DNA of 64,000 bases, taken from contig CM068748.1 in assembly GCA_035084275.1 (NCBI GenBank), forward strand, positions 16,492,001-16,556,000, in the 5' to 3' direction. This stretch comes from Hydrolagus colliei (lineage: Eukaryota). Made by a program: the position numbers and the translations under genes. Every line of letters begins with the position of its first letter. Positions within the stretch are counted from its first letter, which is position 1. Below are positions 4,570 through 62,085 of this stretch, in pieces. The notes below the pieces were generated by a model. The model was not told the DNA's origin, ran no database searches, and saw only the letters and a program-made list of their open reading frames with translations.

Positions 4570-4756
4570 AAAGTCATTTCTCCTGGGGTCCTAGCCAACA
4601 ATTCCCAAGATAAATTGGAACACTGCTGTATGCAAATGGATGGGTTTGCCTATAAGTCCAGTCACTGCCCTTCACAATAGATTCTGTGAAGCACTTTCAG
4701 TGTCTCTTCTGGCATGAAGGGGGTGTTATTAAATGTAAAGATTATTATTATTATAC
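4570..4756 (+). mobile_element. SINE 3' fragment
   Basis: ctcctggggtcctagcc (end of Deu core)...ttctgtgaagcacttt...aaatgtaaagattattattatt tail. Confidence 0.6.
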
Positions 4757-5209
4757 TGTAATGCATAAGTAGACAAGAAATTTTGCTGTAAATTAAATTT
4801 CTAATTTCTGGATAGCTCTGAGCTTCTGTGAAACTAATAGCAAAGGCGACTGTGCTGCCATATATTAACAAAACCAATGATTGCGATTCTTTACAAAGGT
4901 TCACTAGCATAATTTGCTCCACTTTTTCATCCTAATTTTTTTTAATGGAAATTTGGCAAAGGAATCGATTAAGGAACATGAGAAATAGATTTTATTTGTA
5001 AATCTCATGCATTTCCCTTCGGTTTATTTTCTCATTCAGTTTCCCAATTAATCAAGAATTTTGAAGTCTTGCAAATTATTTTTAGTATCTAATTTACCAG
5101 TCTCCCCTCCCAACCTTTGGATACTATCCCTTACTACTGACACTCAGTGACTTGTATTGTTCACAAAGAATGGTTACTTGGATTGTAACAAAGAGAGTAG
5201 TTAACTGTA

Positions 5210-5454
5210 ACAAAAACAGAAGTTGCTGGGAAAACTCAGCAGGTCAGGCAGCATCCATGGAGAAAGGAAAGTGAGTCAACGTTGAGGGTCCCCAAACCTT
5301 TGTTAGAACTGATTCTGACGAAGGGTCGTGGACCCGAAACGTTGACTCACTTTCCTTTCTCCATGGATGCTGCCTGACCTGCTGAGTTTTCCCAACAACT
5401 TCTGTTTTTGTTTCAGATTTCCAGCATCTGTAGTACAGTACTTTATGTTTTGTT
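5210..5454 (+). mobile_element. Non-autonomous Penelope-like palindromic retroelement with 14-bp TSD
   Basis: 75-bp inverted repeats 5209-5283 / 5338-5412 with 1 mismatch, a unique 3' extension ttcagatttccagcatctg, and the direct repeat AGTAGTTAACTGTA at 5196-5209 and 5455-5468. Confidence 0.8.
5310..5349 (+). ncRNA. Minimal type I hammerhead ribozyme motif (Penelope-type)
   Basis: CUGACGA (5315-5321), A, helix II GGGUC-GUG-GACCC, then GAAAC-GUU with the palindromic AACGUU helix III. Predicted cleavage is after U5343. Helix I is weak: UGAUU/GA(C)UCA. Confidence 0.7.
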
Positions 5455-8400
5455 AGTAGTTAACTGTACTCCAGCAAAGAATCACAACATCTTCAAACGA
5501 AAAGGCAAGAGAGAAAATATTAAGCCACATCTTCTAGAAATCCTTTCCTCCTGAAGAAGTCATCCCACAAGATCCGACTCCATTGGATCACCAGCTGTGA
5601 TACCTCTCTTCTCTTCGCAACAACAACAACAACCACAAAATTACAGCACCTTTCACTTCAGGAGAAACATTCAAGAAGATGCAGGAAATTAGGGTGATCA
5701 CCACAATTGATGTGAAATCTGCACACTGCTATTTTGTTATTGACCGCTGGGTTCCTATCCAGTTACTTTGGTGTTCATTTATTTGTGTACAGTACTTGTT
5801 TTTTCTATTTTTCTCAAGAAAAATGGCTTGCATATAAAACACAATGTCTGACCAATGGATTGCCTCATGCAAAAATACACAAGCAATTAATTGGCACAAG
5901 AAGCCAGTTTTACTGCATAGTTTCACTTGTATTAGAATTGAGCCCCCAGGAATCAACTGCTGTAATTCTAATGAAACCACTTGCATGAACACAATACATT
6001 GACTAAAGAGTTAACTGGATTCAAATGACTATTAAGTCATTTGTTGCTACAATGAGGAAAAGCAGGGTAATTCTTATTCTCTTACATGAATAATCATCTT
6101 GCATTATATTCGCAAAAACTTTCCAGCCCACTACCCATCTGCTTTAGTCTTTTAAACTTTTAGTGCTTGTGAAAGGAAGAGAGAACTGATTTCACATCAA
6201 AGTCCAAATCAATCTTGGAGCATTCAAAGCTTAGAACAGAGAGGTCTTTACATTTTTTGCCAAGTGCCACAATGACTGAATGCTGATGCCTTAAAGGCAC
6301 AGTAAAGAGGACGGATTTGGGAACCAGCAGTCACATTTGGGTCATGCTTTTCAACAAGTCAAACCACAAGAATGTCAGAATGAAAAAACGTATGCACGAA
6401 AATTAATGTCTGGCGTTCTAGGTCAACAAGTCATAAAATTGGCACTGACCAGCACATTTACTGTGTCTCCGATTGATTGTCTAGTTCAATGTAATTCTTC
6501 TTTGAGGACAGCCTGTAATTTTATTAATTTTGTTCCCCCATAAAAGAGTACTCTCTTGCTCCTCTTCCCTCCCCCTATAAAAAAGCACACTACAAAGATG
6601 AATTATGTTATGCACATGCAGCCATCAGCACCCTTCATTCAGAGCTCTCTGTTCTCCATTGAAAGCAACTATTATGCGTAGATTTTGCTTGACGCCAAAA
6701 AGGACAAATAATGATCACTTCAAGAGCACTGGTAATATTGTTGTTGGTGGTGGTTGTTGTTATATATTTATATCGAGTACAAAATATCCTGCAGGAGATT
6801 AACATTAGTGCAGTTTGCAAATTAGTCACAAGCTGATTCCCCATGTGCAAGCCTGAAATAACTTTTTCCTCAGTGTAATTTCAAAGTTCAATCCTCCCCC
6901 AAAATTAAATGAAACGTTGAGCACATATAATCTAAATGGGAGAACAGTTCACTTTTTTTTAAATTACAATTTCTGTTGTGTTGTCAGCCATGCTCATAAT
7001 TTCGCACAAACTTCAAAAGAATTTGCAATGCCTTCCGAAGTGAAAACAGTTTGAAAGCCTCATTGACCGTATTGGAGCTTTAACAAAATGGGAGTGTGGT
7101 TCAGTCACTCAGTAAACCAGTCAAGCGCAGCGGCAATAAGTGAGGCAAAGTACTTATCATTTTACCCTGGGGGATCCCAAGTTGCTTTTAAACTTTTTTG
7201 CTGCAAAAATAAATAATTTTATATTAGTTTCTTTGCATTGGAAGATATTTGCATTGGCGTTTGTGCAATCACATAAAATAAAGTCTTACACCTTGCCAGA
7301 CAGATATGCACAATCAATGGTAGACACAATTGCAGCAAAGCCACTCTTAAAATGCTTGGTTTTTAACTGGTTTCCATTAGAACTGAAATTCCCAACAGGT
7401 CAGACATAAAAGAAGCCAGCTGCAGTTCAACATTAGGTCTTCCAGCCAGTGTTGGGCTGGGCACAGATAGATGACATTTAAGTAAACTCCCAAACCTTTT
7501 TAGTCAACCGAAGTAGGTGATACTCCTATGGAGACAAATTATATGATTTCCAAGTTAGCAATTCAGTTAAATGCACCTTATAAACATAAGTTAACACGTT
7601 TCATTGAATATACTTAAGAAATTGAGAGCAGATCTCAAGGTCTGGGGGGCAGGGAGGTGGGGGTGAAAGTGCAAACACTTGTTCAATTTTAAAAGTGCCT
7701 GGGAATATCTGGAGATACTTTGCTTCAATGACAGCAGCAGTTGAAAAGACTTGGTGGAACTGAACCGGAAATATGACTTCAGAGTAGACAGTGGTTTCAT
7801 AGGATGTTAAAGACTTTACATGCACACTACTTTAAACAAGCATAAAATATCCTCATCACATAAATATAGCTGAATTTTAATTCTCGCATTAAAACTATTT
7901 GTGCAAGACATTTTAAGATACACTGAAAGTCAGGATTATACTTTGAGCCGAGTTTCTAATTGGAATCATCCCACATGACATCTACTGCTAGCACCAGAGA
8001 GATCAAGTGGATTTACCCACACACTAGCCTCTCTAGACCTATGACCCCAACCACTCACTCAGACTGAAACTCCACTGTGTATTTCAGTCACTGAGCAAAT
8101 CTGCGCAGACCAACAGGAAAAAGATGAGTTTAATCTCGACATCTATTTTCAGGCTGAATTCCAACAAGCTTAATGCATTTCAATGATAAATCATCTAAGG
8201 TTCCTCCAAACCCATCTGCATCCAAATATTTAAATTGACCAATTGTCAATTCATCTCACGTGCCCCGCTGGCCAAATCTGAGCAGTCAAAACTACACATT
8301 AAGCATTAATTATATAAATATATAAATCTTTTGCAATTTTGAGCAGTTTAGGAAAATTGTTGGATAAATGTTATATGAAAACTTGCTGTGATGTGTTAAT

Positions 8401-13360: not shown

Positions 13361-13595
13361 ATAATTATAATAATCCTGGCATCCGATATAATAATAATAA
13401 TCCTTCCATTTGATACAGTGCTTTTCAAGTCTTCTAGACATCTCAAAGCGCTTCACAGAATATACACTAAAATGAATTGACTGTATATTTGTGGGAAAAA
13501 CGTGGTCGCCAATTGCACACAGCAGTGTCCCACAAACAGTCGTGGATTGAATGACTAGGTTATTACTTTTTTTCTTGAGGAAATATTATCAGTGG
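13361..13595 (-). mobile_element. tRNA-derived short SINE (SINE2-1_CM-like), 3' part with duplicated tail
   Basis: (ata)n-tccttccatttgat...tctagacatctcaaagcgcttcacagaat...gccaattgcacacagcagtgtcccacaaacag. Confidence 0.85.
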
Positions 13596-18150: not shown

Positions 18151-18224
18151 GCTTGCCAATCTGTCCGCTGCTACTGCTCAGCAGGCTCCATGTTTTCCGC
18201 CCGGCCCGCCAAACGATCAGCAAA

Positions 18225-18457
18225 CTATAATATGAATTGACTTTATATATGTGGGCAAACCGCAGCAGCCAATTGCGCACAGCAGTGTCCCACAAATAGT
18301 TGTGGATTGAAATTACCAATTCATTATTGTATTGTTCAAGGGATTATTATCAGTCGTGTAGGGTAAGGAAACTTGCCCAAGGTGTCATTCTGCCTGGAAT
18401 TAAACCCATGTCTCTCGCTTGCAAGATGAATGCTCTAACACTGAGCTACAGAACTCC
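18225..18457 (-). mobile_element. tRNA-derived short SINE with head, tail truncated
   Basis: The reverse complement starts ggagttctgtagctcagtgttagagcattc...gggtttaattccaggcag...ccttgggcaagtttccttac. Confidence 0.85.
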
Positions 18458-20970: not shown

Positions 20971-21498
20971 CAACAACAACAACAACAACAAATTACATTT
21001 ATAGAGCGCCTTTCACGTCGGGAGGACGTCCCAAGGCGCTGCACAGGAGGCGTGTGACCCGAGCTGAGAGGGGAGTGTTTGGGAAGGGGTGAAACACGAA
21101 GGGGGGGTAAAAGAGTTCAGAGTGGAACAAAAGGCACGATCGAAGAGGAAAGTCTTCAAACCGGCCTTGAAAGAGGAAAGGGAAGAAACGAAACGGAGGG
21201 ATTGAGGGATGGCATTCCATAGGGTGGGAGCAGAGAAACTGAAGGTCCGGCCTCCGATGGTGGGGCGGTTCGGGCGGGGGGCTTGGAGCAGGCCAAGTCC
21301 TGTTGAACGGAGGGTCCGGGTGGGCGTGTAGGGGGAGAGTAAATCGGTTAAATAGGGCGGGGCAAGGCCGTGTAAGGCCTTGAGGTGAGGACAAGGATCT
21401 TGAACTCGATCCTCTGGAGGATGGGGAGCCAGTGGAGACGGGCGAGGGTGAGGGTTATGTGGTCGCGGAGGCGGGTGCGGGATAGTACACGGGCTGCA
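20971..21498 (-). mobile_element. Young L2 LINE 3' end with (TTG)n tail
   Basis: The - strand translates SAARVLSRTRLRDHITLTLARLHWLPILQRIEFKILVLT (L2 ORF2 C-terminus). It is CpG-rich and has an intact 3' stem-loop and tail. Confidence 0.92.
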
Positions 21499-23644
21499 GA
21501 AGAAGAGCCATTTGGGGAAATAGCTGGAACAATCTGGCTGTTGAGTTTGCCTACAACATACACAGTCACCACAGTTTACAGTACAAGGTTTAAAGTGTTT
21601 TTAGATATCAAATGCAAGGATTGCTGATTTTTGCTGAAGATCCAAATCCTGCTCAGCTGGAAACATATTGAAATACCTTCACCAACATATGCGGGTAAAT
21701 AAAACCGAGGAAACAAATCTGCATGGCTAAAATACATAGGTTTGCACAGAGAGAATGGACCATATTCATTTAAGTCAGCCTGGTATTCGTTGACCTTGAT
21801 TGATGGTGCGCTACAGGCAATAGAGGTGCTAAGAGATGCTATGGTCTAGAAAAGGATTTTCATTACAAAGCTTCATGCTCAATTGCTTGCCTGTTACAGT
21901 ACTCTTCCAATCATAATCTACCTATCACATCAGTATTAACAATGTATTTAAAATCTTCCAATTCCTCCAGCAATGTGTTTTTAAGTATAATGTAGCTGGG
22001 TGAATTGTTTCACGCTTTTCTACTCTTATTGCAAAATTTTGTTCAAAATGACTCAGATGTTTTTGCTTCAATAATTATGTCTAATTTGAAACCTAATGCG
22101 TTTTATCCACAGCATACATTATACAGTACAAACCCAACCTAAGCTGATAGGCAAATATATAGTGTAGGACTGACCAACTAATTATGGCTAAATGCATTTT
22201 TTTTTAAAAAACTTAACATACATTACTTCTGATAAAATAGGAAAAGTTAATTATGAAACAATCCTCTTAACCTTACGAGAAATATCCCATTGTGCAAAAT
22301 CAAGACATTCCCCCCTGCTTCGCCAGGCCAAAGTGGGCTTAAGTTAATGCCATTAACATCAATACATAGAGCAATAAAAACAAAAGAATTCTCACACACC
22401 AAGATAAATCACTGCAAGAGAGGATTCGTAAACTAAAAGTGTCTCAGTGAAACCGTCCCCAGGGAAAGCAAACTTGTTTTCTTCTGTAAGACAGCAAAAG
22501 ATTAACGATCTCGCTCTCTCTGAACCCACACAACTTCAGTAACTGTTGAGGAGTTTTCTATATTTCAGAGAACGTACAATTATAACAAATGAACCTTTCG
22601 TCAAAAAAAAGTCATGTTGTGAGTTGTATCATATAATCTTCACCGGAGTGTGGTTCAGTTGAAGAGGGTAGGTTTTAAAAGTTACTAGATCTCCAGCACT
22701 TCTGACAACTTCATAAAAAATGTGTTTTAAATAATTTCACTTTCTTTGAAGGTCTGAAAATCTTACAAATGAGAGGGACAGATCTCATCACACAGGCTCT
22801 TGTTATAGTTTTTAAAAAGGACTAAATTACAATTAGTGCACTTTTCTTTACTTTCTGAATAGCATTGATGTAAATACTGAGCAATGGTTGAAATTAATGT
22901 GAGGAGCTACTGAATCCAACAGAATCCGAACGCACACATGTGATTAAACTGATGCGGTTATTGAACTGCCCCAGTTTAAATGGTCATCTCATAATCCGGC
23001 TCATTTATTCAGTTCTCTTTTAGGGCTCTTTTATCTCATTATTATCAATTATTATCAATTCTTCAAATGTGCTATTCTGAAAAAGATTACAGTCCTAATT
23101 ATTTTTGTACATGGTGTACATTTGTCTTCGAGCAAATGGAAGTGCACTACAAAATACCAAACTGCTACTTCTGCAGTACAGATATTAACTGCATATCAGC
23201 ACTACAATAATAAAATATTACCCTGGGGTTAGAGATATGACAAAAAAAAAGGCAGTGGACATTATTGAGCACATTCCACATCCCTTCTAAACCCATTGTA
23301 CCAGTTATAATCTGAAAACTGCACTTGCTGGTTATTTTATTACACCTGTGGGTGAAATTCCATTAAACAAAATTCACAGGAAACTTTCAAATACAAGCTG
23401 AGTAGAAAAGTATTAATAAATGGAACTGGTCTGAAACGAGGTCTGCTGTTCCATTCCGTTTCCCCATGTTTGCCCTTATTTTCACTGTTTTCACTTTCTC
23501 TCTCCGATTTTAAAGGACTGTAAAACTTAAATGTGCAAGTTTTTTCTTCTTCTTTTCATTCCCCTGCGCTTCTTGTGACACGGTCACAAAGGGTTACATC
23601 TTGAAAATAATATGCATAGAAGCATCCTTGCAATTGATTATCAT

Positions 23645-27045: not shown

Positions 27046-27117
27046 AAAGAGATGAATAGTAGCCAGATTGTAGCAAACTGAAAAAAAATATGAAGTGGAC
27101 AACTGTATTCATGAATT

Positions 27118-27338
27118 GAATTCGCTGGGATACTGCCTGACTCAGCAGGTCAGGCAGTATCTATGGCGAAAGGAAAAGTGAGTCAACGTTTCAGGTCCAC
27201 AAACTGATGAAAGGTCGTGGATCTGAAATGTTGACTCACTTTTTTCTTTTCTCCATAGATGCTGCCTGCCCTGCTGAGTCCTCCGAGCAATTTCTGTTTG
27301 TGTTTCAGATTTCCAGCATCTGTATTTTGCGTTTTTGG
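27118..27338 (+). mobile_element. Second Penelope-like palindromic retroelement with 11-bp TSD and hammerhead core
   Basis: The arms are homologous to the 5210 element. The core CUGAUGA-A-AGGUC-GUG-GAUCU-GAAAUGUU is at 27204-27232. ATTCATGAATT occurs at 27107-27117 and 27339-27349. Confidence 0.78.
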
Positions 27339-28957
27339 ATTCATGAATTACTGGGCAATCTAAGACAAGAAAAATAGATCTGTTCAAAGGCTGATCTAAA
27401 TCTGTACAGTGAGAGTGTGCTGTGCTGGGTGCGCTTTCAGTCGGTAAGACGCACATGAAGTACTCAGCGTTTCAAATTCAGTCACAAGACTTTCAACATC
27501 AGTAACATTCCAAGCACAGAAATAGCAAAAGCAGGAATTCAGAAAGTCATAAATCTTTTGACGTGATTACTACGCAACAACCAAATATTATTTTGCTCTA
27601 TACTGTTAGGCGTAATTATATGCATTTAATTATATACTGTAGCACCATGATTCTTCCCTATTGTAGGTATTCATGTTTTGGTTAGACGAGAGACTGCGCA
27701 AGAACATGTTCAACGCCACCTCACTGACCCAGAAAAGTGTTTTACAAGAAGGGTTTGTTATACAGTCCTTTGTCAGTGGCTCATCAATTTCCTCTGATGC
27801 TCGGAGAATCCCTACATGTGCAGAGGCACCAAGAAGCTCCAAGTGCCAGAGGAAATCAGATTTCCCAGTTCATGCAATCTTGAAATCTATGCACAACACA
27901 AGCAACTGGCCTGCAAGGTGGCAGAAAATAGCGAGACTCAGCAGATAGAAAATAGAATGGTTCTTACACCTATGACAATATATGGCATCTTCAGTTTCAG
28001 GGTACTACTACTAATAATAATCAATGCCTTTGATATAGTGATTATCATGTCATTGAAACATTTCAATGAATACACTATAAAGTGGATTGGTTGTGTATTT
28101 TGCAGGAGAAACATGGCATTCTTCTATATTATAAAAACATTACACAATGGTACATTCTATTATATTATAATATATTATAGATGGGAGTATTGTGCAAGTT
28201 CCAGCTGTTAATAGTTCAGCTAGAGTAACACTGCTTGATCATTGACATTGAGTTGCTAAAAGATGAGAATCTTGTGAGTTTTCATTCTAACTTATACTGC
28301 TATCAGTATGAATGCCACACTTGAAACCTGCATTAACTGAATGCTTTACAATTTGGTCGTACTAAGTTGGAACCAGCCAAACTGGCCTATTCTATTAGCA
28401 GAGTATGAACTTACATACGCAGCTTTCAGTTGCAAAGTCTATAGTAGTGAATTTTCAATCTGCGCAGCACATAAGTGTATCATCCCAGTGTGCCTCACTC
28501 AACCTTGTATGTAACATACCATCACATCACTGCACAACACCACACCAGCTAGCAGTTGTAACTGTGCTGACTTAAACCTGACAGAAAACAGAAAACAGCT
28601 GTTGTGGTCTTGGCCGGTTCAGAACCCAACTAAAACGGTTATAATTCATTTTGGGGAAACTGGACTTCAAAGATGTTTCAGTTCCCAAAAGGTTGGAATA
28701 TTGCAACTCAAGCCATAAGGAACAGACTTTTTATAAGTTTATTTCCTCCCTCCCACCCCCCAAAAAAAATCAATCACAGATCTCAACCTCACTGATACAG
28801 TGCTTCACAGCACTGCCTGACATTGGTCAGCCATGTCTCTTCAAGTGAGGTTATTTCAAGTGAGGTGGGTATTTCATATCTACAGAACATGTTTAAGAAA
28901 AGAAACCAATCCGAATGGTACAATTTAAATTTGATCTAAGGGCAAGGCTCACACTAC

Positions 28958-32427: not shown

Positions 32428-34504
32428 ATAAGGCATGACCTTGAGCATGTGCTGGTTGTCTGACCAGGTAAAGGGGGCAAAGGGAATACACTGCCACAGA
32501 ATAATCCTGATCTCACTTAATGTCCACTCACCTTTTGCCAGGAGTTTGAATCTACCTGTTATCCCTATTACCGAGGCCAATTCGAGCACTTTAACTGCTG
32601 CCTCACTTGTAAAGAACTTCCTCAGCACTGAACCGAATGCAAACCTATGCTTTGAATGGGTGTACCCTGCACCCTTACAAATATTTCTTAAAGCAATTCA
32701 TATCGTGGACAGACATATATACATTTTTATCGATTTTCCTACCCTCACACTCAGTGCTCCGCTCAGAATTTCTCCCACCAGCTATGTTGAGGCCAGTTTA
32801 TTCGCCTGATAGTTGTGCAAAGAGACGTTTTTGAAGGAAAAAATAAGACATTTTTTGCAGTCCATTGCCTTTCTGAACCCAATTTGATAAATATCTTGTG
32901 CGATAAAATCATGACAGCAACTAGGTAAAAATATCTCTTAATATCCTATTAACTGAAAAAGCCATATCAAATACAGGGCTTAATTGCTTCAATGACATCA
33001 GCACAAGGAAAGCTCTGTGGCTGTGCTTTTGTTAATAATCACATAATTGGACAATTGATAACGTACTAAATGTTGCCCCATTGCATCCTAAACTTCTAAA
33101 TTTGATATGGACTACCTAAAAATGCTCCCAATTAGTTGTTCAGCTTGTGAAAGGTCAAAATATTTGTACAAATAGAAACCAGTATGGGTGCTTGTGCAAG
33201 CATTTATGCACTATTTACCAGGAAAACTGCCAGAAAGTAAGATTGCACAGTGCAACGCAACAGCAATTAGCTGGAGCCTGATTGCCGAGCCCACTTTTCA
33301 ACAGTTCCTTCATTTGCACCTCAACAGTGGAAATGTAGGAGGTGCAAATCCATTCGGGCACAAATAGTCCTGTAGAAATCCTTGATTGTTCCAACGGAAA
33401 GCACAAGAAACTTGTGAGGGGACCATTTAATAACGTTAACAAGGTCTGCAGGCACCTGACTCTTTAATGACATTAAATAAACCAGTGCAGCTCAATGCTC
33501 GATTGCTGAGAGCTTCCTTAACCCCATCCAAAAGGATTAGGAGCTGGGAGTGTAGGTCCATCTTTTTCACTCTTGAGCTCTCTATTGCTGGAAAGACTTA
33601 TTTTCAACAATACAAACTGGCCATTAACTGCCCATGGAACTAGGCAGACATGATGAGTCAAACAGCCTCCTTCAGTGCCGAAATCATCTCAGTTTTTTCT
33701 GCCAAAGTATATCAGCCATTTCACCATCGCATGGCTCCCGCAGTGCATTTCACTCATTGTTTAAACGTGGCAGCACATCATAGCCAGTGCAATATCTTCT
33801 ATTTATATCTTTGTCTGCATCTAATAAAACTGCGTGATAAATCGTAACTTCACCAACAAGGACATGCTATTTACTCCATGTATGTGAGGCAACAACCCAA
33901 CTGGAGTTAGTTTCGCAGAAGATGCTGCCAGTCAAAAAAAAAAATCCAATTCAAAACAGCTGTGTAGGGGTCCGTCCCAAGTACCAGCAAACATTTGGAG
34001 TAAACAGAGCAACTTGTATGCATGAAATATTACATTTCATGGTGCACTGTGGAACAACAAAACAGATAGGGCTATTTTAATTAAGAAATCAACTTGTGAC
34101 TCATCGGACTACAATCAGGGTCAGTGGTGTACTTTCAGCATTTATGTACAGTTATTCCTCTTTCTGATTCCAGGGACACATTGGTCAATCTGTTTCTCTG
34201 CTGTTCGAGGATAACATAATTCAATGATAACATAATTCAATACAGAGCAGAGTCTGAAACTGTTCATTTTCCTGGTACGTGCGGCTCTGCATAATATGGT
34301 GCTTTGCCCCAATAAGGATTTGGTGAAGCTGGACTTTTTGCAGAAACCCAGGGAGAATACAACAACAACAAAAATCATATCGGTAGAGCACATTTCATGT
34401 CGGGAGGACTTCCCAAGATGCTGAATATGGGAAAAATCAAGACAGCAAGTGTGCAAACCAAGGAGATTTTTTTGGAGATGGCAAAATCTGGAGTCAGTCA
34501 CGTA

Positions 34505-34828
34505 AATAATAATATTAATAATAATCATCCTTGCATTTGATATACTGCTTTATCACATCTTCTAGATGTCTCAAAGCACTTCACAGATTATAATATAAAG
34601 TAAATTGACTGTATATTTGTGGATAAAATGCAGCAGTCAATTGCACACAGCATAGCGGTGTTCCACAAACAGTGAGTTGATTTGATCAATTTATTATTGG
34701 GTTTTTTTGAGGGATTACTGTTAGATGTTTGGAGTAAGGAAACTTGCGCAAGGTTTCACCTTGCCTGGAATTGAACGCTGGTCTCTCACCTGTAAGACAA
34801 GTGCTCTAACCATTGAGCTTCAGGATTC
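34505..34828 (-). mobile_element. Full-length tRNA-derived short SINE
   Basis: Tail, body (ggaaacttgcgcaaggtttc) and tRNA head (gtgctctaaccattgagct) are all present. Confidence 0.9.
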
Positions 34829-40129: not shown

Positions 40130-40270
40130 GCCGTTCATGGCTGCCACATTTTGCCCACAAATATACAGTCAATTCACTTCACAGTATATTCTGTGAAGTG
40201 CTTTGAGATATCTAGAAGACGTGAAAAGCACTATACCAAATGCAAGGATTATTTGTTATTATTATTATAA
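40130..40270 (+). mobile_element. Short SINE 3' half
   Basis: tggctgccacattttgcccacaaatatacagtcaattcac...tctagaagacgtgaaaagcact...aaatgcaaggatt. Confidence 0.85.
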
Positions 40271-40539
40271 TTAACCTGAGTGCCATTTAGTTCCCTATCA
40301 AAACCAATCACACAATTCGTATTAATCATCTCCTAACTCGTAACGCCAGTCCCCTATCTACCTTTACTCCCATACATACCTGCTGCATCGAATCATGGGA
40401 AATGATCGGTCGACATATGAACACTTACCGGCTGGCTGCATTAAATGGATCCGTCGATGCATGTGCAGAAGAACTTCATTTCCTGCCATTCAATGCAATT
40501 CCAGCGCTTGTCGATATTTTCGCAATCAATGACGGGTCA

Positions 40540-46690: not shown

Positions 46691-47399
46691 ATACACTTCT
46701 TAAAAGTCACGCATTTTATTTAACAGATGGTATCCTGGGTGAAATTAGCTGGACTTTGGAGCATTACAGTAACTAAAGAGTAACAGACAAAGATGATGGG
46801 CATATGTTTAAAAAGGCCCCTTCAGCCAGGTAAATCTGAAGGTGGAAGTTTCTCCAGTTTAGATCAGTGTACAGAGCTTGGTGAACACCAGTATGACTAA
46901 AAATGGCTAGATTCACACTCAATAAATTTACTTTGGGAGATGCCAGACAGAAATAGACACATTCAATCACGTGCCATGGCCCCTTCCAAGTATTCAAAAT
47001 TATTGGCAGCGCATCTGCAGCATATGTCCAATGTTGAGGATTGTTCTATTCCAGAGAATCAACAGTGATTTTTATTGGAAGATTTTTATAACTTCCATTT
47101 CACTGCTGAAAAACACTGGTTTGACACTTGCCAAAGCAGTTTTTCTTGTATGATGGAAAGGACCTCCTCTGCCTTTGGAGGAATAAATCACTTTTCTGAA
47201 ACAATCTTTTGCAAATAGATATTGTTAAAGGCCCATATGGGTTATTGACCTTCCTTGAGAAATAGTACACTGTCATAGCTTTTTTTTAAAAAAAAATCAC
47301 AGTTCCTGCATTGTGTCCTCTCTTCTTCCAAGGCAGAGAATCATGCTGGGGTACATGTGAATGAACATTGTCTACAATTAGAAAGGATGGACAAGCCAA

Positions 47400-47582
47400 A
47401 TAATAAAATTGGTCATTTTTCAATCCACGACTGTTTCTGGGACACAGCTGTGCACAATTGGCTGCCACATTTCGCCCACAAATATACAGTCAATTCACCC
47501 TACAGTATATTCTTGAAGTGCTTTGAGATATCTAGAAGACATAAAAAGCGATATATCAAATGCACGGATTATTATTATTATG
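47400..47582 (+). mobile_element. Short SINE 3' two-thirds
   Basis: aattggtca...caatccacgactgtt...caattggctgccacatttcgcccac...tctagaagac...(tta)n. Confidence 0.88.
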
Positions 47583-60104: not shown

Positions 60105-60280
60105 CTATTGACTGCGCGCAATTGGTTGCCACATTTCGCCCACATATGTGCATACAGTCAATTCACCTTACAGTATATTCTGTGAAGCGTTTTGAGGCGT
60201 CTAGAAGATGTGAAAAGCGCTATATCAAATGCAAGGAGTATTATTATTAGCAGTAGTAGTACAGTAGTATTATTATTATT
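60105..60280 (+). mobile_element. Short SINE 3' half
   Basis: gcgcgcaattggttgccacatttcgccc...gcgtctagaagatgtgaaaagcgctatatcaaatgcaagg. Confidence 0.88.
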
Positions 60281-60459
60281 CAATCAAGGTCTTCATTATC
60301 CCCAGTATTTAATCGTACAACTCCATGGTATCCCTTAGCCATTCCTTAGCCTTGTGTCCTTCATAGACATTTACGAACAAAGTAAAAGTAATTTGAATCA
60401 TGTAATCAAGTAACAAAGTCAAACATTAGGTAAATATATAGCAGTAACAACAACTGAAA

Positions 60460-60757
60460 ATTCTGTAGCTCAGTAGTTAGAGCACTCTCCTCACAAGCGA
60501 GACACCTGGGTTTGATTTCTGACACGACAAAACCTTGGGCAAGTTTCCTTACTACACACGCCTGATAATAATACCACAAGAAAAAAAATTGGTTACTTCA
60601 ATCCACGACTATTTGTGGGACACTGATGTGTGTAGTTGGCTGCCGCGTTTCGCCACAAATATAGTCAATTCACTTTACAGTATATTCTGTGAAGCACTTT
60701 CAGACGTTTAGAGGACGTGAAAAGTGCTGTAACAAATGCAAGAATTATCATTATTAT
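60460..60757 (+). mobile_element. Full-length tRNA-derived short SINE (SINE2-1_CM-like)
   Basis: A box tagctcagtagttag, B box gggtttgatttc, body ccttgggcaagtttccttac, an L2-like tail and (tta)n. Confidence 0.92.
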
Positions 60758-61914
60758 AAACAAGGAGTCAAACAATGTGGAGTGTTTAAGGAATAAGATA
60801 CTCCGATGTGAACATTTTTAAACCAAACTGGCTGATTAAGCCTAGTTAACCACCCATGATCAAGGGTGAAATTGAAGTAAAACAGAAGTCATCTAAAACT
60901 TGGAAATGCACTATTGCAAACAGCAGCACCAGATGAGACACACAAGGAAAAAATACAACATTTGAAAGACGTTCACCAGAATGATTGATGGATCTCAAGG
61001 ACCACAGATGACTGCACTTCAGGTCCACTGTATGGAATTGCTGTCAAGAGATGGAGGGATAACAGATGATTACAGAAGCATAAAAAAGTTTTGAAAATAA
61101 ACCGTCTACAAAAAGGATTTGTAAATAATGAGATTTATTTCGCTATCCATATTACTAAATTCAGTAAGAATTGCTAACCCCCAAACCCAATTTCTGCAAA
61201 TCTCTGTGTCCCCTAATGAGATGGGTGAGTTATCATGGATTATGAAACAAATGCTCGTGAAGCATTGCAGGTTACGTCCAATTATCACAGTATAAAATGA
61301 AACATGGCTTGACAGTTGCAATGGGCAGCAATATCAAAGGAAGTAGAAAGTGAAGTTGTAGCCTTGTTGCATAAAATGCTGCCCTACATATAAAGAGGAA
61401 GATAAAATAAAGCATAGTACTGAGCGGGTTGCAATGTGGCTACTCCTGAAAAGCATCATAGAAATATGCAGTAAATGGGACAAGATCTGATTTACGTCCC
61501 CAGAAATCAACATCAAAAAACACCAAGACACATGGCACTTGTCACAATAAAACCTGTCACTGGATCATAGCAACTCGGCAAACTGAAATGTATCATTAAT
61601 TTATAAAAGCTATGTTTTAAAAAAAAATATTTGGGGTTTAACCAGAAGAATCTCAATGGCTTTTTACATCCTGTACATTCCTATGGAATTATTTTGGCAG
61701 CAGGATGTTTTATAAACTATACTGAGGAGATAGAAGCAGCAATGTTTCAGGGGACAATTGACATGGTGGCTGTACGTGATGTGAAAGCACTGGCTTTTCA
61801 TCTTCGACAGCAAAGGGACACAAGTTAATTTATTAAATCTTAAAATTTTCAATGAAGTTGATTTTTTTAAATAATAAACTTTTATATTAATCCCTTTAAA
61901 AGAAAATAAGACAG

Positions 61915-62085
61915 TAAATTGGTCCCTCGATCCACAACTGTTTGTGATATACTGCTGTGTGCAATTGGCTGCCAGAGTTTTGCCCACAAAATGCACAGCC
62001 ACTACACTTTACAGTATATTCTGTGAAGCACTTTGAGATATCTCAAAGGCATGATACGGTGTTGTATCAAATGCAAGGATTATTC
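61915..62085 (+). mobile_element. Short SINE 3' two-thirds
   Basis: atccacaactgtttgtg...gcaattggctgcc...ttctgtgaagcactttgag...aaatgcaaggattatt. Confidence 0.85.

What the first reader, a model, noticed from the sequence alone, without database searches (positions are those of the whole stretch)
5196..5468. TSD-flanked palindromic retroelement carrying an intact minimal hammerhead ribozyme core
Seen: a 245-bp insertion (5210-5454) lies between perfect 14-bp direct repeats AGTAGTTAACTGTA. It is almost entirely a palindrome centred at ~5310, with a short unique 3' extension. The right arm reads CUGACGA-A-GGGUC-GUG-GACCC-GAAAC-GUU, which supplies both conserved hammerhead boxes, a 5-bp helix II and the loop-less self-complementary AACGUU helix III. 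Established: such minimal type I hammerheads are characteristic of Penelope-like elements and related retrozymes, are thought to cleave as dimers, and long variable TSDs fit retrotransposition. Inference: this is a non-coding, ribozyme-bearing, non-autonomous retroelement that a naive annotation would miscall as a DNA MITE. I cannot tell whether this family is already described in this genome.
Basis: partly seen in the sequence, partly recalled or inferred. Interest (0 to 1): 0.8.

Follow-up and report, generated by a model that had tools for sequence, protein, structure and literature searches.

The report
Fold-back Penelope retroelement stub with hammerhead
This is a real hairpin-shaped insertion from a very abundant repeat family, likely the short end-piece of a Penelope-like jumping gene, whose ribozyme motif is predicted to be locked shut inside the hairpin, so it is probably an ordinary by-product and not a new kind of mobile RNA.

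Summary
Observation confirmed: a 245-bp insert (5210-5454) between exact 14-bp repeats, with 99-bp head-to-head arms, a 43-nt one-sided tail and a minimal type I hammerhead (5315-5343) fitting the published Penelope-like element (PLE) consensus. A second copy (27118-27338) has an 11-bp duplication and a different tip. Contigs from four public runs show a very abundant family with shared outer ends and variable tips. Inverted pLTR + direct pLTR + tail + variable duplication is the described insertion pattern of endonuclease-bearing PLEs. Most likely (0.75) each hairpin is made afresh by an autonomous PLE's reverse transcriptase-endonuclease from uncleaved RNA, not copied from a palindromic non-autonomous master. 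The ribozyme is predicted to be a passenger: helix II probability 0.0 in the whole transcript, 38 kcal/mol to force the fold; the inverted copy is mutated dead. The coding partner could not be found (no genome held). Not a DNA MITE, not a tandem retrozyme. The scan noted the same kind of element twice before on other DNA. Two leads: both duplications hold palindromes (2 of 2), and 7 of 8 arm mismatches cluster at the tip. New member of a known kind; interest 0.25.

The parts
5196..5209 (.). left target-site duplication, 14 bp, holding an 8-bp palindrome
5210..5308 (-). left arm: inverted copy of the presumed pLTR end, without tail; its hammerhead copy is inactivated (7 changes between 5284 and 5304, both core boxes hit)
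5309..5312 (.). 4-nt tip; read on the minus strand it continues the left arm into the letters that precede the ribozyme in other copies
   Evidence: table 7, place 5313
5313..5411 (+). right arm: direct copy of the presumed pLTR end
5310..5349 (+). minimal type I hammerhead: core 5315-5321, extra A5322, helix II 5323-5327/5331-5335, GAAA 5336-5339, C-G palindromic helix III stub, predicted cut 5343/5344, bulged helix I
   Evidence: fit to published consensus
5412..5454 (+). one-sided 43-nt extension, equivalent to the PLE 'tail' (about 39 nt in the family; this copy seems to carry a 5-nt duplication)
   Evidence: (loose ends at 5430, 5435); literature
5455..5468 (.). right target-site duplication, 14 bp
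27107..27349 (+). second, more diverged copy of the family: 11-bp duplications at 27107-27117 and 27339-27349, insert 27118-27338 (221 bp), left arm stopping at loop II, right arm starting at the core (27204), tail present

Best explanation
The insert is a head-to-head pair of short copies of one repeat end plus a one-sided tail between 14-bp duplications, and it is most likely a dead-on-arrival product of an autonomous Penelope-like retrotransposon, with the hammerhead predicted to be an inactive passenger. Shown: duplication, arms, tail, ribozyme motif, second copy, high abundance, shared outer ends, variable tips. Inferred mechanism: the PLE reverse transcriptase/GIY-YIG protein nicks both strands of an AT-rich site 14 nt apart; reverse transcription starts at internal sites of the PLE RNA, the far one giving the tail-bearing right arm (5454) and the near one giving the tail-less left arm (5210 = 5411); both copies stop near the 5' edge of the ribozyme and are joined head to head; fill-in makes the duplication. 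Because both arms run past the cut site (5343/5344) into the core, the template would be uncleaved RNA. Of the 0.75, I put about 0.45 on priming from both nicks and about 0.30 on one primed cDNA folding back and copying itself; either way the hairpin is made at insertion.
For: Architecture equals the described PLE pattern: inverted 5'-truncated copy next to a pLTR, 30-40-bp tail at one end, palindromes at the junction, TSDs of 8-10 bp (passages of PMC3846280; PMC8557442; PMC8969392). Ribozyme fits the metazoan PLE consensus, including features the authors list as not built into their descriptor: the extra base before helix II, the G-C closing pair and the C-G palindrome; that paper also reports minimal hammerheads 100-700 bp apart on opposite strands, ascribed to truncated PLEs. 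The anole PLE protein nicks and extends both strands at AT-rich sites, starts at two internal sites that delimit the tail, is predicted to be a dimer, and uses uncleaved RNA (PMC11167929). Family-wide fixed outer ends with unrelated AT-rich flanks: in run X5, 269 and 218 contigs leave the element at 5209 and 5212, 448 at 5435 (24 of 1372 rows shown). Tips differ: copy 1 against copy 2, and 13 of the 15 joint rows shown (of 373) lie inside the element with different break points. 865 contigs in X5 start at 5313 with upstream letters that do not match the element, so many direct arms have no adjacent inverted arm. Whole-insert transcript: helix II probability 0.0, forced ribozyme fold costs 38 kcal/mol; right arm alone forms helix II at 0.96-1.0. 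A contig of organism D resumes at 5462, inside the duplication and without the tail, as an empty site would (X13 record 1).
Against: No reverse transcriptase or GIY-YIG frame was linked to these ends: no genome is held, 0 of 254 window frames of 60 aa or more hit such a Pfam family, and the 36-aa frame through the tail found 0 relatives. No Rfam hammerhead match. Variable tips could also arise after insertion by rearrangement of a palindrome centre (recalled; only a search listing seen), and joints from short-word assemblies of palindromes at 80% likeness can be false; which arm looks complete is biased by this copy's mutated left tip. The empty site is not clean: 255 record bases lie between the aligned blocks where 149 are expected, and no joint row for it was shown. 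Only two full copies with flanks were read. The cluster of 7 of 8 arm mismatches at the tip is not explained by the model.
Confidence: 0.75

Rival explanations
1. A self-propagating non-autonomous PLE derivative: a palindromic master is transcribed and mobilised in trans as one unit, and its tips diversify afterwards by centre rearrangement.
For: Very high abundance and shared outer ends; 2 of 2 window copies are fold-backs of similar size, 245 and 221 bp; pLTR ends suffice for mobilisation in trans in rotifers; non-autonomous PLE derivatives exist. In each copy the two arms share one family variant.
Against: Tips of the two copies differ by about 20 nt; joints are heterogeneous and many direct arms lack an adjacent inverted arm; a -175 kcal/mol hairpin would bury both the ribozyme and the near start site; shared outer ends are equally predicted by fixed start sites.
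Confidence: 0.17
2. A DNA transposon of the MITE or fold-back type that happens to hold a hammerhead-like string.
For: Long inverted repeats, no coding frame, flanking duplication; the relaxed motif alone occurs in 29 of 200 Markov controls; no Rfam hammerhead match.
Against: The inverted repeat does not reach the right end (43-nt tail); duplications are 14 and 11 bp, not fixed; the motif is in both copies, and copy 2 keeps helix II through a two-sided G-C to A-U change and a G-U wobble; full fit to the PLE consensus.
Confidence: 0.04
3. A copy kept by the host as a small-RNA precursor or regulated ribozyme.
For: Near-perfect hairpin; right-arm core intact with 4 CpGs while the left tip keeps 1; splice-like signals in the arms (sequence); shared with organism B (X6 record 15).
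Against: Rfam miRNA matches are far below gathering score (44.7 against 100; 41.7 against 92); probably absent in organism D; ordinary member of a very large family; the outer arms differ at 1 of 75 positions, as for a young insert.
Confidence: 0.04

Closest known systems
Insertions of endonuclease-bearing Penelope-like elements (Penelope/Poseidon, Neptune): inverted pLTR + direct pLTR + tail (Arkhipova 2013 PMC3846280; Craig 2021 PMC8557442)
   Same: Head-to-head inverted copy, palindromic junction, one-sided tail of about 30-40 bp, variable TSD (passages).
   Different: Reduced to about 100 bp per arm with no coding part; TSDs of 14 and 11 bp against 8-10 bp in the rotifer examples; the coding partner is not identified.
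Minimal hammerheads of metazoan PLEs (Cervera and de la Pena 2014, PMC4209133)
   Same: Core boxes, extra base before helix II, G-C closing pair, C-G-U-U ending as in the Tetraodon, Schistosoma and C. briggsae rows; mostly dispersed single motifs; opposite-strand pairs reported.
   Different: No shark or chimaera term found in the supplement file searched (one file not searchable); here the second motif is mutated and helix I is a bulged chimera made at the tip.
Poseidon of Anolis carolinensis, PAc (Frangieh 2024, PMC11167929)
   Same: Two internal start sites delimit the tail; both strands nicked; AT-rich targets; uncleaved RNA used; start sites roughly 100-150 nt past the ribozyme.
   Different: In PAc the reading frame starts at helix II; here the only frame through the tail has no relatives. 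The parts read do not give a mechanism for inverted stubs.
Non-LTR retrozymes (Li, Clavereau, Pollet, bioRxiv 10.64898/2026.07.22.740005)
   Same: Non-coding, type I hammerhead, related to PLE pLTRs.
   Different: Defined as head-to-tail tandem units with two or more ribozymes; this is a dispersed head-to-head pair with one intact motif.

Membership tests
EN+ Penelope-like element insertion | Minimal type I hammerhead in the terminal repeat | tested here: met
   against the consensus; present in 2 of 2 window copies
EN+ Penelope-like element insertion | Inverted 5'-truncated copy head to head with the direct end | tested here: met
EN+ Penelope-like element insertion | 30-40-bp tail at one end only | tested here: met
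   43 nt in this copy; about 39 nt in the family from loose ends at 5435; also in copy 2
EN+ Penelope-like element insertion | Target-site duplication of variable length | tested here: met
   14 and 11 bp in 2 of 2 copies; empty site only probable
EN+ Penelope-like element insertion | Single frame with telomerase-like RT and GIY-YIG endonuclease bounded by the same pLTR | not testable with these tools
   no genome held; none in the window; collections hold no real copy; tail frame without relatives
EN+ Penelope-like element insertion | Self-cleavage as a dimer or with the PLE protein | not testable with these tools
   needs bench assay; folding only
Non-LTR retrozyme | Head-to-tail tandem units with two or more intact hammerheads | tested here: not met
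   no direct repeat of the unit near either copy
Non-LTR retrozyme | Circular RNA intermediate | not testable with these tools
   no RNA reads were laid
DNA MITE | Terminal inverted repeats at both ends | tested here: not met
   right arm ends 43 nt short of the right end
DNA MITE | Fixed TSD of a transposase superfamily and uniform size | tested here: not met
   14 and 11 bp; 245 and 221 bp; variable tips
Rfam hammerhead families | Covariance-model match | tested here: not met
   no hammerhead family among 9 matches at E up to 10, none at gathering score
Known microRNA precursor families | Score at Rfam gathering threshold | tested here: not met
   mir-641 44.7 of 100, mir-2131 41.7 of 92, mir-3150 38.3 of 100

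The most novel reading that the evidence does not exclude
These stubs are a genome-wide record of the unsolved PLE insertion step: a dimeric RT-endonuclease cuts symmetric (palindrome-centred) targets, primes from both nicks at two start sites and joins the cDNAs error-prone at the ribozyme's 5' edge; or they are a self-propagating MITE-like retroelement whose hairpin switches its ribozyme off. Thousands of copies would make this directly testable.
Probability: 0.2. Interest if true: 0.6.

Novelty: new member of a known kind. Interest (0 to 1): 0.25.

Why it matters
As it stands it matters for annotation: such hairpins would be miscalled as MITEs or microRNA precursors (one search shows sub-threshold miRNA matches), and they add many long double-stranded-RNA-forming inserts to the host genome. 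For specialists, how PLEs make inverted ends and the tail, and what their hammerhead is for, is still open. A family this abundant gives the statistics to test priming from both nicks against fold-back, a preference for symmetric targets, and whether cleaved RNA is ever copied (tips ending at 5344 or its mirror 5277).

Tried and rejected
Whole genome: none held, so no copy count, TSD table or partner search. Pattern scans: 0 loci in metagenome contigs, 0 in viral contigs; 3 loci in bacterial genomes matched only 20-22 bases and were dropped as chance. Pfam on 254 of 254 stop-to-stop frames of 60 aa or more: three weak matches below cut-off, none RT or GIY-YIG. Idea that the ATG at 5367 starts the PLE frame: open through the tail in 2 of 2 copies, but 0 hits among 1.84 billion representatives, weak for a 36-aa query; one search used another frame of copy 2 by mistake and says nothing on this. 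Rfam: no hammerhead. Sequencing runs: no RNA holder listed; 4 of 24 runs were laid, the fish-gut runs were not. Summed depth over the element (millions against 57-102 in flanks for X5) is not a copy number and was used only as a sign of abundance. The apparent asymmetry of joints (right arm complete, left arm short) was rejected as biology because this copy's mutated left tip biases placement. Co-folding two copies of 5305-5360 did not give the dimer ribozyme fold; nearest-neighbour models do not score the core, so this is uninformative. Earlier-finding look-ups by sequence and by place returned nothing. Lunse et al. 2017 is not held; only its title was seen.

Full report
OBSERVATION. The sequence is as described. 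An exact 14-bp direct repeat lies at 5196-5209 and 5455-5468; with 10 bases of slack at each end, 1 of 3000 random position pairs gave a repeat that long. Between them, 5210-5308 pairs without gaps with 5313-5411 around a 4-nt tip, with 8 mismatches in 100 positions; the RNA folds at -174.8 kcal/mol, z = -22.5. A 43-nt extension (5412-5454) has no partner. The right arm holds CUGACGA (5315-5321), an extra A, a 5-bp helix II, GAAA (5336-5339) and CGUU, with the predicted cut after U5343. The motif fits the consensus of metazoan PLE minimal hammerheads in Cervera and de la Pena 2014 (supplement), including the three features the authors say were not built into their descriptor. Against over-reading: my relaxed descriptor alone fires in 29 of 200 Markov controls of the window, and twice or more in 3 of 200, against 2 observed; no Rfam hammerhead model matches; the dimer helix III is ACGU, not AACGUU; helix I in this copy is 2 bp, a bulge and 3 bp, formed across the tip, whereas the left arm and the loose-end letters of other copies point to a plain 4-bp helix I in the family.

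THE FAMILY. The window holds one more copy: 27118-27338, 221 bp, between 11-bp duplications. It has the same tail, but its left arm stops at loop II and its right arm starts at the core, so the tip differs. It keeps helix II through one two-sided change and one wobble, but has lost the helix III palindrome. No genome is held, so I laid contigs of 4 of 24 listed runs on 4700-6000 at 80% likeness. Records laid: 27,942 of 9,293,879 (X5, organism A), 26,316 of 13,493,220 (X6, organism B), 9,639 of 4,521,633 (X7), 9,308 of 6,906,335 (X13, organism D); some belong to another repeat at 4700-4787. In all four runs many contigs leave the element at 5209/5212 and at 5435 into unrelated AT-rich flanks (X5: 269, 218, 448), the latter after about 15 shared letters, giving a family tail of about 39 nt. 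865 contigs in X5 start at 5313 with upstream letters foreign to the element, so direct arms without an adjacent inverted arm are common. Of 15 joint rows shown (373 in all), 13 lie inside the element with different break points. These are short-word assemblies of palindromes, so single joints may be false, and the side that looks complete is biased by this copy's mutated left tip. The insertion is in a second sample of organism A (records 7, 14) and its left junction is in organism B (record 15, 9 differences in 538 bases). In organism D one contig spans the locus and resumes at 5462, inside the duplication and without the tail, as an empty site would; but it has 255 bases between the blocks where a clean empty site predicts 149, and no joint row was shown, so this is probable, not proven. 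The host is likely a cartilaginous fish; this rests on my recall of similar repeats and on two earlier scan notes about other genomes, not on a test here.

WHAT IT IS. Inverted 5'-truncated copy, direct end, one-sided 30-40-bp tail and a variable duplication are the described insertion pattern of endonuclease-bearing PLEs (passages of PMC3846280; PMC8557442; PMC8969392). Cervera 2014 already reports opposite-strand pairs of minimal hammerheads 100-700 bp apart and ascribes dispersed motifs to truncated PLEs. DNA MITE fails on termini, TSD and size; non-LTR retrozyme fails on tandem arrangement. The one defining feature I could not test is the coding partner: 0 of 254 window frames hit RT or GIY-YIG, pattern scans found no real copy in prokaryotic, viral or metagenome collections, and the frame from the ATG at 5367 through the tail, open in both copies, has no relative among 1.84 billion representatives.

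HOW IT MOST LIKELY ARISES (inferred). Frangieh 2024 showed that the anole PLE protein nicks and extends both strands of AT-rich DNA, starts at two internal RNA sites that delimit the tail, is predicted to be a dimer, and inserts uncleaved RNA; its hammerhead cleaves only with protein and is dispensable in vitro. Mapped on this insert, the right end (5454) is the far start site and the left end (5210, mirror of 5411) the near one; two short cDNAs stop near the ribozyme's 5' edge and join head to head, and the 14-nt stagger becomes the duplication. Both arms of both copies extend 5' of the cut site, so the template would have been uncleaved. The alternative is self-priming of one cDNA, close to the proposal in Arkhipova 2013. 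Copy 2, where the tail-bearing arm reaches further 5', fits fold-back; copy 1, where the left arm reaches about 4 nt further, fits it less well. I put 0.45 on two primers, 0.30 on fold-back, 0.17 on a self-propagating palindromic master, 0.04 each on MITE and host co-option. The ribozyme is predicted to be silent here: in the whole insert helix II has probability 0.0 and forcing the fold costs 38 kcal/mol, while in the right arm alone helix II forms at 0.96-1.0; the minus-strand copy has lost both core boxes.

UNEXPLAINED. (1) 7 of 8 arm mismatches fall in the innermost 25 of 100 positions (hypergeometric 0.0002; 286 of 200,000 permutations for any 21-nt span), all read as changes in the left arm; 4 are transversions, and at the two such positions shown most other copies keep the intact letter. 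Error-prone joining, a second diverged template or later centre rearrangement could each explain it. (2) Both duplications hold palindromes, 8 bp in the 14-mer and 10 bp in the 11-mer; 3.4% and 0.3% of window words of those lengths do. This was noticed after the fact on two copies and is a lead only.

NOVELTY. The kind is known. Seven literature searches listed no title or abstract opening on fold-back PLE stubs in cartilaginous fish, but Repbase and Dfam could not be searched and the library lacks most subscription papers. The scan noted the same kind of element twice on other DNA (e1-7789271, e1-9866773); my reading was recorded before seeing them, the words 'stub' and 'passenger' are theirs, and they are not independent evidence. 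Papers as seen: PMC4209133 parts 1-2 of 4 and supplement file 2 (search and part 2 of 3; file 1 not searchable); PMC11167929 parts 1-2 of 4; bioRxiv 2026.07.22.740005 part 1 of 5 and passages (its supplements, which list one chondrichthyan species, were not seen and may hold related families); PMC6155905, PMC3846280, PMC8557442, PMC6765202, PMC8969392 passages; Lunse 2017 title only; palindrome centre-break work search listing and recall only.

VERDICT. Real; new member of a known kind; interest 0.25. Boldest reading not excluded (0.2; interest 0.6 if true): the family records symmetric-target double priming by a dimeric PLE enzyme, or is a self-propagating hairpin-switched retroelement.

Noticed in passing
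window 27107-27349: Second copy of the family with 11-bp duplication, different tip and a 7-nt extra stretch in its left arm.
   Followed up: yes
window 5196-5209 and 27107-27117: Both duplications contain palindromes (8 and 10 bp); background 3.4% and 0.3%. Possible symmetric target choice; two copies only.
   Followed up: partly
window 5284-5304: Cluster of 7 of the 8 arm mismatches at the left tip, including a 2-nt change that looks like a micro-inversion at 5284-5285.
   Followed up: partly
window 5184-5202: The left flank resembles the element's own left end 5206-5224 (84% over 19 nt): chance, or insertion into a pLTR-like site.
   Followed up: no
window 5271-5276, 5374-5378, 5400-5416: On the + strand a donor-like GTGAGT in the left arm, a branch-like CTGAC and a pyrimidine tract ending in CAG at the arm/tail border; PLE ends are known to hold introns, but no donor was seen in the direct arm.
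   Followed up: no
window 5367-5456 and 27259-27363: A frame from an ATG runs open through arm end and tail in both copies (29 and 34 codons); no relatives found.
   Followed up: yes
window 4700-4787: Another high-copy repeat ending in an (ATT)n run; a few contigs in three runs join its end (4754) to the start of the ribozyme arm (24 letters on the short side), perhaps insertions beside (ATT)n tails.
   Followed up: no
window 18385-18455 (-): tRNA match at Rfam gathering score (35.7 bits) at the edge of a repeated interval 18224-18453: probably a tRNA-derived SINE head.
   Followed up: no
window 13387-13593, 34495-34827, 40138-40282, 47393-47582, 60112-60249, 60459-60758, 61884-62084: An abundant dispersed repeat family with up to 13 overlapping self-matches; not classified.
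   Followed up: no
window 21016-21600 (-): 195-aa open frame that resembles the end of an L2 LINE protein (recalled; no Pfam match).
   Followed up: no
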